This document shows, one piece after another, positions 3,514 through 19,841 of a stretch of 64,000 nt of DNA. The position numbers and the translations under genes are program-made. The notes beneath the pieces are model-generated. The model was given only the letters and a program-made list of their open reading frames with translations, was not told where the DNA came from and searched no databases. Location: positions 1 to 64,000 of IMG/VR virus record IMGVR_UViG_3300025168_000063. One strand, given 5' to 3'. The stretch's first letter is position 1. Every line of letters begins with the position of its first letter. The DNA is from a virus.

Positions 3514-3617
3514 CTGTTCATAACTTTCCCAAACTCCACGAAAAATAATCCACCAAACTGTTGCATATTCGGATAAAAAGGGGGATCTTTATCTTGTAAA
3601 GATAAAGAGATTAATAA
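3514..3617 (+). promoter_or_regulatory. Composite early promoter
   Basis: Box 3514, TTG 3561, GATCTTTA 3584, perfect inverted repeat 3586-3608. Confidence 0.85.
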
Positions 3618-4097: not shown

Positions 4098-4191
4098 TTG
4101 TTCATAACTTTTATGAAATTAATTGCATGAATAGTTGCATAATTGAAATAAAAGGGGGATCTTTATCTTGTAAAGATAAAGAGATTAATAA
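4098..4191 (+). promoter_or_regulatory. Composite early promoter
   Basis: Box 4098, TTG 4135, GATCTTTA 4158, inverted repeat 4160-4182. Confidence 0.85.
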
Positions 4192-6440: not shown

Positions 6441-6489
6441 TCGAAAAAAAAGGGGGATCTTTATCTTGTAAAGATAAAGAGATTAATAA
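6397..6489 (+). promoter_or_regulatory. Composite early promoter, box inverted
   Basis: AAGTTATGAACAA 6397, TTG 6433, GATCTTTA 6456, inverted repeat 6458-6480. Confidence 0.85.
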
Positions 6490-8086: not shown

Positions 8087-8177
8087 TTATGAACAATTGG
8101 AAAAATAATTGGTTAAACTGTTGCATATATGAGATAAAGTCCGTATCTTTATCTTGTAAAGATAAAGAGATTAATAA
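8084..8177 (+). promoter_or_regulatory. Composite early promoter, box inverted
   Basis: AGTTATGAACAA 8085, TTG 8121, TATCTTTA 8144, inverted repeat 8146-8168. Confidence 0.85.
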
Positions 8178-12064: not shown

Positions 12065-12428
12065 TATTTATATGCAGACAATGAATAGTAACTACGATAT
12101 AAACGATCCGGATAACAATGATTTAATAGTACATGAATCAATGGATAACGTGTATAGTATAATAACAAAGCAGGATACATATCATACCATCTCAGAGCGT
12201 AAAGGTAGAGTATTAATGTTATTCAATCCCTTTGATAAACGTCCTGATGTGGATGAGCTTATTGACACGCTTATTGAATACTATGCATTACCAGACATTG
12301 AGATGTATGAGAGATGTGCTGAGCTTGTAAAGCTAAAGCAATCAGATAAGAAGTTTTCTGTTGAAGACATATTTGAATCTGATATAGAGTTTGATCCTGA
12401 CTGGGATATTGAAGATAATGACCGCTAG
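12048..12428 (+). CDS. Hypothetical protein with UVR-like helix
   Basis: EMYERCAELVKLK; acidic tail. Confidence 0.6.
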   Translation: MKLRFDIYMQTMNSNYDINDPDNNDLIVHESMDNVYSIITKQDTYHTISERKGRVLMLFNPFDKRPDVDELIDTLIEYYALPDIEMYERCAELVKLKQSDKKFSVEDIFESDIEFDPDWDIEDNDR

Positions 12429-12656
12429 TACTTTTATTAGCTGCTCTTTTGGACGAGGGTTCGAAACCCTCCACCTCCACTAAACAATTTACATTATGGG
12501 GGTGACTGGCTTTGACAGGGAGATAAGGATAAGAGGAAGGTCAACGCGTAACTGGCGAACAAGTTGAAATGGCGATGGCGGCTTAGGCACCCTGACCCCC
12601 CGGCCTAAAAGGGTATGGTCGTCAAATAACCTGGTTGGGTGGAGGTACTAATAAAA
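12424..12656 (+). ncRNA. ssrA: Circularly permuted (two-piece) tmRNA, tag GEQVEMAMAA*
   Basis: T-arm GAGGG-TTCGAAA-CCCTC and 3' acceptor strand CACCTCC-A (12455-12479) lie before the 5' strand GGGGGTG-ACTGGCTTTGAC (12498); G3.U pair; tag ORF 12554-12586. Outer boundaries approximate. Confidence 0.9.
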
Positions 12657-12661
12657 AAGGA

Positions 12662-13117
12662 ATGATAGACATGGCAGCTAAAAAGTGGACAATAGAGGAT
12701 GTACTCGATCCCGATTCTGACTTCTGGATATTTGAAGAAGAAGAAATTTGGGATTGGTTAGACCGTATACCAAATGAGCGCCAAGACCAAGCATTTAAAA
12801 ATATAGAAGAATGGATCGCAGATGGAGATATCAAACTAGAAGAACCATTTGATACGAAACCGCTCAAGGATCAATTTGAATCCAACCTCAACAACTTGCA
12901 GGACACTAAACGTCTGCAGAGTATGATTCAATCTGATATGATTAATGTTACTATGGTAAATAATATGGTTGCACTATCAGCTAAGAATCTACCAAAGCTC
13001 AAAGAGATGAAGGATCTAATGGAGAGCCACGGAAACAAATTTGTCGAGTACAGATTTAGATTAAATAAAAATGAAGAAAAGGTACATACGTACATATTTA
13101 TTATTGAAGGCAACTAA
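12662..13117 (+). CDS. Hypothetical protein
   Basis: ORF track; ATG at 12662 or 12671 preferred over TTG 12635. Confidence 0.7.
   Translation: MIDMAAKKWTIEDVLDPDSDFWIFEEEEIWDWLDRIPNERQDQAFKNIEEWIADGDIKLEEPFDTKPLKDQFESNLNNLQDTKRLQSMIQSDMINVTMVNNMVALSAKNLPKLKEMKDLMESHGNKFVEYRFRLNKNEEKVHTYIFIIEGN
13095..13101 (+). promoter_or_regulatory. Putative late promoter TATTTAT
   Basis: Same motif precedes several structural operons. Confidence 0.55.
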
Positions 13118-13164
13118 TACAGTAGGTTGGGTGTCTTAACATAAAATCATTTAAGGAGATTAAT

Positions 13165-13596
13165 ATGACAACATTCTTTCAAGAAAGGTTCTATCCAACG
13201 GACCTATTATTCAGAAATTTTTTCGACGGAGAAGCTTCATTTAGAGGCTTACAAGATAACAAACCAAGCTATCCAGTAGATATATATCTACAAGAGGATA
13301 ATTTATGTTTTGATATTGCATGCGTCGGGTTGGAAAAAAGTGATATAGATGTCACAGTAGAAGGCAGTACATTATTGATTGCCTATACAAAACCAAGTGT
13401 AGAATCAAACCCATCAGATGTTAAAGCACCGGACTATATCCATAAAGGTATAGCTCGAAGAAGCTTTGATATGGGATGGAAAGTAAGTCCGAAGTTCGAT
13501 CTTACAAATATAAACGCAACAATGGCTAACGGATTATTGAAAGTGGTAGTACCAGTTTCAGAGGAAAGTAAGCCAAAATTAGTTACAATTAAGTAA
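13165..13596 (+). CDS. hsp20: Small heat-shock protein (Hsp20/alpha-crystallin)
   Basis: YPVDI, YIHKGIARRSF, ATMANGLLKVVVP. Confidence 0.93.
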   Translation: MTTFFQERFYPTDLLFRNFFDGEASFRGLQDNKPSYPVDIYLQEDNLCFDIACVGLEKSDIDVTVEGSTLLIAYTKPSVESNPSDVKAPDYIHKGIARRSFDMGWKVSPKFDLTNINATMANGLLKVVVPVSEESKPKLVTIK

Positions 13597-13627
13597 AATA
13601 TGATACCCAACCTACTGGAGTTATATG

Positions 13628-13658
13628 GAATAGAGTAGCAATGCTCTATTCTTTTTTT
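13628..13658 (+). terminator. Intrinsic terminator
   Basis: gaatagagta-gcaa-tgctctattc followed by T7. Confidence 0.85.
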
Positions 13659-13710
13659 ACAAACACACATATGTATAATATATGAATATAAGTTATAAAA
13701 GAGAAAAACT

Positions 13711-19460: not shown

Positions 19461-19841
19461 ATGAATTTTGAAGATCAGGAATTATTTAAAGGTAAGTCGT
19501 TCTCATCCTTATTAAAGGATATATACACTACCACTAAAAATAAAGAAAAACAAATCAATATACTAATTAGTGAATTAAAACCACTAGTTAAGAATATTGG
19601 TGATGCTACTATTATAGTACCTCTAATCAAAGAGTACTTGGAAGTTGGTGTTAAGAATGATGAGCATCTAGTCAAGATGGCAGCGGTAGTTCAGCGAGCA
19701 ATGACTCGTGTAGAAGCTTCCGGAGGAGATTTGATATTGTCTGATGATGAAAAGCAGCAACTATTAGATACGATGAACGACATGGAAGATCCGGTTCAAC
19801 AAAGCAAACTTGATGTCGTAAAGTCGAAAGTGAGTAAATAA
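19461..19841 (+). CDS. Hypothetical helical protein
   Basis: AGGAG SD; 126 aa. Confidence 0.8.
   Translation: MNFEDQELFKGKSFSSLLKDIYTTTKNKEKQINILISELKPLVKNIGDATIIVPLIKEYLEVGVKNDEHLVKMAAVVQRAMTRVEASGGDLILSDDEKQQLLDTMNDMEDPVQQSKLDVVKSKVSK

What the first reader, a model, noticed from the sequence alone, without database searches (positions are those of the whole stretch)
13120..13617. hsp20 CDS enclosed by a 16-bp 5'UTR/3'UTR duplex
Seen: CAGTAGGTTGGGTGTC (13120-13135) and GATACCCAACCTACTG (13602-13617) are reverse complements except at one position, which forms G.U in RNA. That points to RNA-level pairing. Both arms lie between the TATTTAT motif (13095) and the terminator (13628), so they are inside the predicted transcript. 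Inference: a closed-loop mRNA serving as RNase III substrate, stabiliser, circularisation signal or long-range thermosensor, unlike local ROSE elements.
Basis: partly seen in the sequence, partly recalled or inferred. Interest (0 to 1): 0.7.

Follow-up and report, generated by a model that had tools for sequence, protein, structure and literature searches.

The report
RNA clamp tying phage hsp20 message ends
The stretches just before and just after this marine phage's small heat-shock gene pair into a 16-bp RNA helix, and matched mutations have kept that pairing in about 60 related phage loci, so it is a real and rarely documented way of closing a bacterial-type message on itself.

Summary
13120-13135 pairs with 13602-13617 (15 Watson-Crick pairs plus one G.U) around an Hsp20 gene.

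In this window alone the repeat is barely beyond chance. Comparison settles it. About 60 distinct homologous phage loci carry a 5'-flank/3'-flank duplex in the same position, usually 0-8 nt after the stop codon. They use at least 15 unrelated arm sequences, with compensatory changes within clades. Six hsp20 loci outside this subfamily (five cyanophages and Agrobacterium phage Atu_ph07) lack it. No other gene in the window has it.

- **RNA rather than DNA:** wobble bias and sense-versus-antisense stability favour pairing in the sense RNA.
- **Inside one transcript:** a late-type promoter motif (ATATTTAT) sits just upstream of the 5' arm, and a terminator follows the 3' arm.
- **Closest relatives:** there the clamp encloses two genes (hsp20 plus DUF2061).
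- **One clade:** the stop codon itself covaries with the 5' UTR.

My best reading is a long-range 5'UTR/3'UTR clamp like that of B. subtilis hbs mRNA. It would control message stability or processing and be opened by terminating ribosomes. In some clades it abuts a U-run and may act as a terminator stem. The function is untested, and a thermosensor role is disfavoured.

The scan found this motif before on other DNA (e1-5788433 and several first-reader notes).

The parts
13092..13103 (+). Late-type promoter motif ACATATTTATTA, lying inside the 3' end of the upstream ORF 12662-13117
   Evidence: The same (C/T)ATATTTAT(T/A) motif, without a -33 TTG, lies 16-41 nt upstream of the structural-gene ORFs at 19461, 22853, 35521, 40253 and 44811. 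A TATATTTA-like box lies within 45 nt upstream of the 5' arm in 41 of 58 homologous loci, against 8.7% background. The transcription start is inferred, not mapped.
13107..13137 (+). Weak local 5' hairpin that contains most of the 5' arm. It is an alternative to the clamp.
   Evidence: RNAfold gives -8.5 kcal/mol. The equivalent hairpin in clade B is supported by covariation: 85.8% of cells paired against at most 53% when slid, with 5 pairs changed on both sides.
13120..13135 (+). 5' arm of the clamp (CAGTAGGTTGGGTGTC)
13152..13158 (+). Strong Shine-Dalgarno sequence TAAGGAG, outside the clamp
   Evidence: Only 10 of 51 ORFs in the window have a strong SD. The region AAAT(T/C)AT(T/C)T(A/T)AGGAGATT is nearly invariant in the loci of alignment A1.
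13165..13596 (+). hsp20 coding sequence (143 aa), the loop of the clamp
   Evidence: PF00011 at 1e-10; phrog_432 at 2.9e-14
13602..13617 (+). 3' arm of the clamp (GATACCCAACCTACTG), starting 5 nt after the stop codon
13598..13626 (+). Weak local 3' hairpin that presents the 3' arm
   Evidence: RNAfold gives -5.3 kcal/mol. This is a prediction only.
13627..13659 (+). Separate intrinsic terminator: an 11-bp hairpin plus a T-run
   Evidence: folded at -13.5 kcal/mol. The same arm-plus-terminator arrangement is conserved in L001.

Best explanation
The two arms are the halves of a long-range RNA helix, a 5'UTR/3'UTR clamp, in the hsp20 message.

Proposed sequence of events:
1. Transcription starts a few nucleotides after the late-type motif at 13092-13103 (inferred).
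2. The 5' arm first folds into a weak local hairpin (predicted).
3. Once the 3' arm is made, 5 nt past the stop codon, it pairs with the 5' arm. The predicted energy is -27.8 kcal/mol, against -8.5 and -5.3 for the local hairpins. This closes the whole cistron into a loop just upstream of the terminator.

What is shown: this pairing is under selection across a large phage hsp20 subfamily.

What is inferred: as in B. subtilis hbs mRNA, the closed form shields the leader and the message ends from ribonucleases or sets where they cut. It thereby gives this one gene its own stability or processing regime.

Because the helix begins at or within a few nucleotides of the stop codon, each terminating ribosome must open it. 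This links the closed state to translation.

In lineages where a U-run directly follows the 3' arm, the same helix probably also serves as the terminator stem.
For: 1. **Position kept, sequence free.**
- 32 of 33 distinct flank pairs from the first scan have a strong duplex, with z from -3.8 to -9.9.
- So does nearly every more distant locus from the second scan (45-58% aa identity; z -3.4 to -8.7, with L106, whose 5' flank is cut short, at -2.1). These add at least 15 unrelated arm sequences.
- The 3' arm usually starts 0-8 nt after the stop codon.
- Cognate duplexes average -30.3 kcal/mol, against -16.2 for non-cognate pairs.

2. **Compensatory change within clades.**
- RNAalifold places the clamp as the outermost helix in clade C and in clade B.
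- In clade B, 98.4% of cells are paired, against at most 49% when slid. Four pairs changed on both sides, which 0 of 500 shuffles matched.
- The path A:U to G:U to G:C is seen in clade C.

3. **Stop codon in the helix (clade B).** A TAA-to-TAG change is matched by U-to-C in the 5' UTR. An AAG-to-AAA change in the last codon is matched by C-to-U.

4. **Sense-RNA signature.**
- An alignment that treats all mismatches alike finds 15 G:T/T:G against 4 A:C/C:A.
- The sense duplex is more stable than the antisense duplex in 46 of 60 loci, p = 3e-6.
- Window and L001 differ by two C/T changes, both opposite G.

5. **The unit is the message, not the gene.** In L001-L003 the 3' arm and terminator follow an extra DUF2061 gene, again 2-3 nt after its stop codon.

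6. **Inside one transcript.** The late-type motif lies upstream and the terminator downstream. No plus-strand terminator was found between 12000 and 13627.

7. **Folding.** The full 559-nt putative transcript folds with the clamp in both the MFE and the centroid structure, z = -7.9.

8. **Specificity.** Five cyanophage hsp20 loci and Agrobacterium phage Atu_ph07 lack the clamp, with z from +1.0 to -1.3. Only hsp20 is clamped in this window.

9. **Precedent.** The hbs mRNA has a 14-bp 5'/3' UTR interaction just upstream of its terminator, combined with a very strong SD (PMC5737220).
Against: - There is no direct RNA evidence. RNA-library contigs cover only parts of the CDS of relatives and show no ends or strand. 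The transcription start is not mapped.
- Covariation alone cannot separate RNA pairing from a DNA-level inverted repeat. The wobble bias is moderate and its events are not all independent.
- In several clades the next ORF starts 5-14 nt after the 3' arm. There the clamp is not at the 3' end of the transcript, so end protection cannot be its universal role.
- A ribosome at the stop codon would open the helix. On a heavily translated message the clamp may therefore be open much of the time.
- The effect on stability is argued only by analogy with hbs.
Confidence: 0.6

Rival explanations
1. RNase III processing stem. The duplex formed by the flanks of the cistron is cut by host RNase III, as with the stems around 16S and 23S rRNA or the T7 early mRNA sites. 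This would excise a monocistronic hsp20 message whose paired ends then resist exonucleases.
For: This reading would work whether hsp20 is first, internal or last in an operon, and all three arrangements occur. With flanking pairs the helices reach about 18-21 bp, for example 16 + 5 bp with a 2-nt bulge in clade B. B. thetaiotaomicron, a Bacteroidota control genome, has RNase III. In the window and clade B a tmRNA and an ORF lie upstream on the same strand with no terminator between them.
Against: The window core is only 16 bp (19 with a mismatch), and some clades have 10-12 bp cores. That is short for efficient RNase III cleavage. Most loci have their own promoter motif just upstream of the 5' arm, so excision from a longer precursor is not generally needed. 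No cleavage data exist.
Confidence: 0.2
2. Gene-sized intrinsic terminator. The clamp is the terminator hairpin itself, with the whole gene as its loop, so termination depends on a free 5' arm and on where the lead ribosome is.
For: In clades B and C, and in L055, L083, L088/L090, L112 and L123, a U-run follows the 3' arm directly. No GC-containing local hairpin is present there. Loci without such a U-run have either a separate canonical terminator (window, L001, L124) or run straight into the next ORF.
Against: This does not hold in the window itself, where GAGTTATAT follows the arm and a separate terminator stands at 13627-13652. About half of the arm families have no U-run. A helix whose halves are about 480 nt apart must form within the pause at the U-tract, which is kinetically demanding. 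No 3' ends have been mapped.
Confidence: 0.2
3. Translation-coupled switch or ribosome recycling. The clamp and the local 5' hairpin are two states toggled by ribosomes that terminate at the stop codons embedded in each helix. The closed loop places the stop codon next to the strong SD, so ribosomes re-initiate on the same message.
For: The stop codon lies in or next to the helix in nearly all loci. In clade B it covaries with the 5' UTR. The local hairpin and clamp helix 2 use the same 3' strand, and both are supported by covariation. The strong, nearly invariant SD stands out in an early-gene region where most ORFs lack one.
Against: The reading is purely structural inference. The SD is never part of either helix. 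No precedent for such recycling is known to me in bacteria.
Confidence: 0.1
4. DNA-level inverted repeat: the ends of a mobile hsp20 cassette, recombinase crossover sites of an invertible segment, or paired protein-binding sites.
For: hsp20 with its arms occurs in at least three gene contexts. Covariation of two arms is also expected for paired protein-binding sites.
Against: - The arm sequences differ completely between clades while their position is fixed. That is unlike sites recognised by a conserved protein.
- Orientation relative to the neighbouring genes is constant in all 23 loci inspected.
- The word has a single copy in the record.
- There is no target-site duplication; the flanks are TAATA and GAGTT.
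- Wobble and strand asymmetry favour RNA.
- The arms are too short, and too far apart, for gene conversion to keep them matched.
Confidence: 0.06
5. Long-range RNA thermometer: heat melts the clamp and switches hsp20 on.
For: The gene is a heat-shock gene, and bacterial sHSP genes are often controlled by RNA thermometers (general knowledge).
Against: The SD and AUG are not in the helix. The core duplex is -27.8 kcal/mol, and the predicted pair probability stays at or above 0.99 from 4 to 55 C, far above marine temperatures.
Confidence: 0.03

Closest known systems
B. subtilis hbs mRNA 5'/3'-UTR long-range interaction (Braun, Durand and Condon 2017, PMC5737220)
   Same: Both are short, probably highly expressed monocistronic messages. 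In both, a 14-16 bp duplex joins a 5'-UTR segment upstream of a very strong SD to a 3'-UTR segment just upstream of the terminator. The energies are similar: -19 kcal/mol there and -27.8 here. In hbs the pairing modulates RNase Y cleavage and message stability.
   Different: The hbs interaction was shown by mutation in a single species. Here there is no experiment, but there is covariation across about 60 phage loci. Here the 3' arm abuts or includes the stop codon, and the 5' arm sits near the 5' end and competes with a local hairpin. In some lineages the clamp abuts a U-run or encloses two genes.
S. aureus icaR and Salmonella hilD 5'/3'-UTR interactions (cited in PMC5737220, refs 41 and 42)
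   Same: Intramolecular 5'-3' UTR pairing in a bacterial mRNA that affects its decay.
   Different: In icaR the 3' UTR pairs with the SD region and blocks translation (my recollection of that work). Here the SD is left free.
Processing stems flanking 16S and 23S rRNA; phage T7 RNase III sites
   Same: Sequences on either side of a functional RNA pair and enclose it. This is a possible way to cut one unit out of a longer transcript.
   Different: Those stems are longer, and their RNase III cleavage is proven. Here the helix is 10-21 bp, encloses an mRNA, and cleavage is untested.
Genome cyclisation or panhandle helices of RNA viruses (flavivirus 5'-3' CS, influenza and bunyavirus panhandles)
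   Same: It works in a similar way: terminal complementary sequences close a translated RNA into a loop, and local hairpins compete with the long-range form.
   Different: Those are genomes of eukaryotic RNA viruses, and the helices serve replication. This is a resemblance of design only, not membership.
PeSL regulatory cassettes of T4-type phages (Arbiol et al. 2010, from memory)
   Same: Short regulatory repeats that flank single genes in plastic regions of large phages.
   Different: PeSLs are direct repeats (stem-loop plus early promoter) that act in DNA recombination. Here the flanks are inverted, clade-specific, and carry an RNA signature.

Membership tests
Bacterial mRNA 5'/3'-UTR long-range interaction (hbs type) | Complementary segments in the 5' UTR and 3' UTR of one transcript | tested here: met
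   16 bp at 13120-13135 and 13602-13617, between the promoter motif and the terminator. The clamp appears in the MFE and centroid structures of the whole transcript.
Bacterial mRNA 5'/3'-UTR long-range interaction (hbs type) | Pairing maintained by selection (covariation) | tested here: met
Bacterial mRNA 5'/3'-UTR long-range interaction (hbs type) | Breaking and restoring the pairing changes RNase cleavage or half-life | not testable with these tools
   This needs mutants in a host or phage system.
Intrinsic (Rho-independent) terminator | Stable stem followed directly by a U-tract | tested here: not met
   In the window the clamp is followed by GAGTTATAT, and the real terminator is the local hairpin at 13627-13652. 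At sequence level the feature is met in clades B and C and some others, but activity is untested.
RNase III processing stem | About two turns (around 20 bp or more) of near-continuous dsRNA that is cleaved by RNase III | tested here: inconclusive
   The window has a 16-bp core, or 19 nt at 89%. Clade B reaches 21 bp with a bulge. Cleavage cannot be tested here.
RNA thermometer (ROSE, fourU) | SD or start codon held in a helix that melts in the physiological range | tested here: not met
   The SD at 13152-13158 and the AUG are outside the helix. The clamp is predicted to stay closed from 4 to 55 C.
Transposon or MITE with terminal inverted repeats | Target-site duplication, several copies, and conserved end sequences | tested here: not met
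   There is no duplication next to the arms. The record holds a single copy. The arm sequences are unrelated between clades.
Invertible DNA segment (Hin/Gin type) | Both orientations occur, with a recombinase nearby | tested here: not met
   hsp20 is co-oriented with its neighbours in all 23 loci inspected.
Hsp20 / alpha-crystallin family (the enclosed gene) | Alpha-crystallin domain | tested here: met
   PF00011 at 1e-10, residues 43-142; phrog_432

The most novel reading that the evidence does not exclude
The clamp and the local 5' hairpin form a two-state RNA switch that ribosomes operate. Each helix contains or abuts a stop codon: that of the upstream ORF in the local hairpin, and that of hsp20 in the clamp. 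Terminating ribosomes therefore flip the leader between states. In lineages with a U-run after the 3' arm, the closed state is an intrinsic terminator whose two stem halves are separated by the whole gene. That would be a terminator read out over about 480 nt and gated by translation.
Probability: 0.2. Interest if true: 0.85.

Novelty: new variant of a known kind. Interest (0 to 1): 0.68.

Why it matters
Intramolecular 5'-3' UTR pairing is established for only a handful of bacterial messages (hbs, icaR, hilD), each in one species and by mutation. To my knowledge none is known in phages.

Here a whole subfamily of phage hsp20 genes carries such a clamp, with natural compensatory mutations standing in for the mutational test. 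The subfamily comes from uncultured marine phages whose promoters resemble the Bacteroidota type.

This gives a ready-made and diverse set of sequences for asking several questions:
- what closed-loop messages do in bacteria, whether stability, processing, termination or ribosome reuse;
- how ribosomes deal with a helix placed at the stop codon;
- why a phage singles out its small heat-shock gene for this treatment.

It also shows that gene-flanking inverted repeats in phage genomes should not be read as mobile-element scars by default.

Tried and rejected
- **DNA similarity to isolated phages.** Searches with the locus found nothing. A tblastn search with a 557-aa structural-region ORF also found nothing. 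No cultured relative is available.
- **Rfam.** The window gave only the permuted tmRNA. No known family covers the clamp.
- **Global alignment.** A MAFFT alignment of all clades (A1) misaligns the unrelated arms. Column-wise covariation across clades could not be used, so I worked per clade (A3, A4) and per locus.
- **Pair tables.** Two first attempts were out of register (the clade C part). They were redone.
- **Apparent exception.** L001-L003 seemed to lack the 3' arm. This was an artefact of looking only behind hsp20. The arm lies behind an extra gene.
- **Sequencing runs.** RNA-library contigs (X14, X20, X24) cover the tmRNA and pieces of the hsp20 CDS of relatives, with no ends, strand or joints. 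They are no evidence on transcript boundaries or circular forms.
- **Cellular genomes.** Only one hit was found, in a 425-kb contig labelled as a Pacearchaeota MAG. A host origin for the clamp could not be examined.
- **Phage enzymes.** No RNase III, RtcB or RNA ligase was found, but the record is only 45% complete.
- **U-run classification.** The script is too strict. It scores the core run only, so its counts (24 U-run, 33 none) are rough.
- **Rejected readings.** Chance, a transposon scar, an invertible segment and an equilibrium thermometer are rejected for the reasons given in the membership tests. Stop-codon readthrough was considered and dropped, but the downstream frame was not compared between clades, so it is not excluded.

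Full report
**1. The observation**

The window reads CAGTAGGTTGGGTGTC at 13120-13135 and GATACCCAACCTACTG at 13602-13617. These give 16 contiguous pairs, 15 Watson-Crick and one G.U. The repeat finder reports the pair, extended to 19 nt at 89%. The word occurs nowhere else in the 75.5-kb virus record.

The features around the arms are as follows.

| Feature | Coordinates | Source |
|---|---|---|
| Upstream ORF stop codon | 13115-13117 | |
| 5' arm | 13120-13135 | |
| Strong SD, TAAGGAG | 13152-13158 | |
| Hsp20 ORF (143 aa) | 13165-13596 | PF00011 1e-10; phrog_432 |
| 3' arm, 5 nt after the stop codon | 13602-13617 | |
| Terminator hairpin (11 bp) and T-run | 13627-13659 | |

**2. Is it more than chance?**

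Taken alone, hardly. The window has three inverted repeats with at least 13 Watson-Crick pairs within 1 kb, and first-order Markov simulations give 1.4.

As a pairing between the two flanks of one gene it stands out.
- RNAduplex gives z = -7.7 against shuffles.
- Among 150 tests of all 51 ORFs, taken in spans of one to three genes, hsp20 is the single clear outlier at z = -5.9 and -32 kcal/mol.
- The full putative transcript 13104-13662 folds with the clamp in both the MFE and the centroid structure, z = -7.9.

**3. Comparative evidence**

Two scans of IMG/VR with the protein and with a profile gave 41 and 80 loci, out of 175 confirmed.

- *Nearly every distinct locus has a flank duplex in the same place.* 32 of 33 flank pairs in the first set have one, with z from -3.8 to -9.9. 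So do the more distant ones at 45-58% identity, with z from -3.4 to -8.7. The weakest is L106 at -2.1, and its 5' flank is cut short. L116 could not be tested for the same reason.
- *The position is fixed.* The 3' arm usually begins 0-8 nt after the stop codon, at most 16. The 5' arm usually ends 20-60 nt before the ATG.
- *The sequences are unrelated between clades.* Examples are AATACAGGCAGGTT, AACGTACTAAGTGGGCG, GGTGGACTGGA, ACCTATAGGGCACCT, ATACTGGATGGGTATT, CTTTAGGGAGC, CGGTAGGCCT and GTGAAACCTTAGGG. There are at least 15 families.
- *Cognate flanks pair far better than non-cognate flanks.* The means are -30.3 and -16.2 kcal/mol.
- *The negative controls lack it.* Five cyanophage hsp20 loci and Agrobacterium phage Atu_ph07 give z from +1.0 to -1.3. 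The clamp therefore belongs to this subfamily, not to hsp20 genes in general.
- *The only hit in cellular-genome contigs is also clamped.* It lies in a 425-kb contig labelled as a Pacearchaeota MAG and has a separate terminator.

**4. Covariation within clades**

RNAalifold, run without any hint, places the clamp as the outermost helix in clade C (A3) and in clade B (A4).

In clade C:
- G:C is replaced by A:U in four sequences.
- One position runs A:U, then G:U (L037), then G:C (L012).

In clade B:
- G:C becomes A:U in L014 and L018, and C:G becomes U:A in L010.
- 98.4% of cells are paired, against at most 49% when the partner is slid.
- Four pairs changed on both sides, which none of 500 shuffles matched.

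The clade B helix continues across a 2-nt bulge into the stop codon. The 5'-UTR sequence UUAC pairs with GUAA, which is the last base of the final Lys codon plus UAA.
- The locus with a TAG stop (L015) has C in place of U in the 5' UTR.
- The two loci with AAA in place of AAG (L006, L011) have U in place of C.

A 5'-UTR base that tracks a synonymous change and a stop-codon change 430 nt away is hard to explain except by pairing.

**5. RNA or DNA?**

Covariation alone cannot tell these apart, so I looked for strand asymmetry.
- In a local DNA alignment that penalises all mismatches equally, mismatches inside the arms are G:T or T:G 15 times and A:C or C:A 4 times. By my own count of that table, roughly 12 against 4 are independent events.
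- The sense-strand duplex is more stable than the antisense duplex in 46 of 60 loci, Wilcoxon p = 3e-6, although the loci are not phylogenetically independent.
- The window and its closest relatives (L001-L003) differ in the 3' arm by two C/T changes, both opposite G.

Further points speak against a DNA-level role.
- hsp20 is co-oriented with its neighbours in all 23 loci inspected.
- There is no target-site duplication.
- The sequence has a single copy.
- The arm sequences are not conserved, which is unlike recombinase or repressor sites.

**6. The clamp belongs to the message, not to the gene**

L001-L003 (86% identity) first looked like an exception, because nothing pairs behind hsp20. In fact the 3' arm (GACATCCAACCTACTG) and the same terminator lie behind an additional 69-aa gene, DUF2061 at 1.7e-22. 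The arm starts 2-3 nt after that gene's stop codon. The loop can therefore hold one or two cistrons, while the arms stay at the start and end of the unit.

**7. Transcription signals**

The window's early region uses promoters of the form TTGCAT, 17-19 nt, then GTAT(A/C)TTTA. To my knowledge this resembles the Bacteroidota -33/-7 type.

A second motif, (C/T)ATATTTAT(T/A), has no -33 element. It lies 16-41 nt upstream of five structural-gene ORFs, several of which have an SD. hsp20 has an exact copy at 13092-13103, inside the end of the upstream ORF.

In 41 of 58 homologous loci a TATATTTA-like box lies within 45 nt upstream of the 5' arm, against 8.7% of random windows. Its end is typically 3-20 nt from the arm.

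The start site itself is inferred.

hsp20 also shares a strong SD with the structural genes, whereas most early-region ORFs have none. Only 10 of 51 ORFs have a strong SD.

**8. Local alternatives**

In the window the 5' arm can fold into a local hairpin at 13107-13137 (-8.5 kcal/mol). The 3' arm can fold into a weak one at 13598-13626 (-5.3 kcal/mol). Both are far weaker than the clamp core at -27.8 kcal/mol.

In clade B the local 5' hairpin is itself supported by covariation. It has 85.8% of cells paired, against at most 53% when slid, with five pairs changed on both sides and many G.U pairs. It uses the same 3' strand as the stop-codon helix of the clamp, so the two states exclude each other.

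In L027 both arms are hairpins with complementary loops.

This looks like a kinetic design in which local hairpins form first and the long-range helix replaces them. That step is inferred.

**9. The 3' side varies**

In clades B and C and several others, a U-run directly follows the 3' arm and there is no other hairpin. There the clamp has the geometry of a terminator stem.

In the window, L001 and L124 a separate terminator follows. In other clades the next ORF starts 5-14 nt later.

The one universal feature is therefore a helix that closes the cistron at its stop codon.

**10. Function**

*Shown:* a selected, position-fixed pairing between the flanks, most likely in the sense RNA.

*Inferred:* what the pairing does.

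- The nearest tested precedent is B. subtilis hbs mRNA. There a 14-bp 5'/3' UTR interaction just upstream of the terminator, together with an exceptionally strong SD, controls RNase Y access and message stability (PMC5737220). I take the same kind of role, protection or definition of RNase entry points, as the most likely.
- I add that terminating ribosomes must open the helix.
- RNase III processing, a gene-sized terminator in the U-run lineages, and ribosome reuse are live rivals. They are not mutually exclusive.
- A melting thermometer is disfavoured. The SD is free, and the predicted pairing persists from 4 to 55 C.
- Circularisation has no support.

**11. Direct RNA data**

Contigs from two or three RNA libraries cover the tmRNA, at high depth, and parts of the hsp20 CDS of relatives. 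Contigs show neither ends nor strand. This is at most a hint that such genes are transcribed in the sea.

**12. Relation to earlier scan notes**

The same motif was noted on other genomes by several first readers. One follow-up (e1-5788433) reached the same reading and named the same closest analogue. I reached the hbs comparison before reading that note.

As far as the short summaries of those notes show, the points new here are:
- the two-gene clamp;
- the stop-codon covariation;
- the covarying competing hairpin;
- the strand-asymmetry tests;
- the cyanophage negative controls;
- the late-promoter link.

**13. Verdict**

I class it as a new variant of a known kind, namely bacterial 5'/3' UTR long-range interactions. 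It is unusual for its depth of natural covariation, its position at the stop codon, and its occurrence in phages.

Noticed in passing
window 12420-12586 (+); also L001, L005, L006, L010, L011, L015 and L034, 0.8-1 kb upstream of hsp20: A permuted (two-piece) tmRNA gene scores 62.9 bits against Rfam RF04321 and has its own TTG...TACTTTTA promoter at 12409-12436. It keeps the order tmRNA, ORF, hsp20 in several relatives. RNA-library contigs cover it at high depth (X24, depth 550 on a 31-nt contig).
   Followed up: partly
window 3586-3608, 4160-4182, 6458-6480, 8146-8168 (diverged copy near 441-464): An identical 23-nt palindrome, TCTTTATCTTGTAAAGATAAAGA, lies over the -7 box of four early promoters (TTGCAT, 17-19 nt, TATCTTTA). 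It could be an operator or a hairpin at the transcription start.
   Followed up: no
window, whole; e.g. 19429, 22829, 35485, 40237, 44770: The phage has two promoter or leader classes. Early-region genes have TTGCAT...GTATaTTTA promoters and A-rich leaders without an SD. Structural genes have a (C/T)ATATTTAT motif without a -33 element and often a strong AGGAG. hsp20 belongs to the second class although it lies in the early region.
   Followed up: partly
L094, L097, L098, L100, L103, L106, L107, L112, L113, L115, L123 (5' UTR, about 20-40 nt before the ATG); L091, L101, L105 (GGTT...AACC form): The more distant hsp20 clades carry a second conserved leader hairpin, GCUG-AUCUUAGGA-CAGC. Its apical loop is of the UUCG, UUAG or CUAG type, and its loop sequence resembles the SD region (AUCUAAGGAGAU) of the other clades. 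Its role is unknown.
   Followed up: no
L001:3410-3619 (also L002, L003): A 69-aa DUF2061 membrane protein gene (1.7e-22) is inserted between hsp20 and the 3' arm, inside the clamp loop.
   Followed up: yes
L125-L128, L130 (cyanophages S-CRM01, S-PM2, P-TIM68, S-8S53, S-CAM4): Cyanophage hsp20 genes lie directly after regA in four of these five loci. Most share a leader hairpin around GGAUGCCUUCGGGGUCC, and they have ordinary local terminators with no 5'-3' clamp.
   Followed up: no
clade C loci, e.g. L023:3470-3500; clade B, e.g. L009:3455-3480: The gene after hsp20 starts 6-8 nt after a TATATTAG or TATATTAA box (…TTATATTAGATATATG). This suggests leaderless or nearly leaderless messages.
   Followed up: no
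L124 (JBBACR010000001.1, 425-kb contig labelled Pacearchaeota MAG): The only hit in cellular-genome contigs for this phage hsp20 subfamily, and it carries the clamp. The contig may be a misbinned large phage or a provirus.
   Followed up: no
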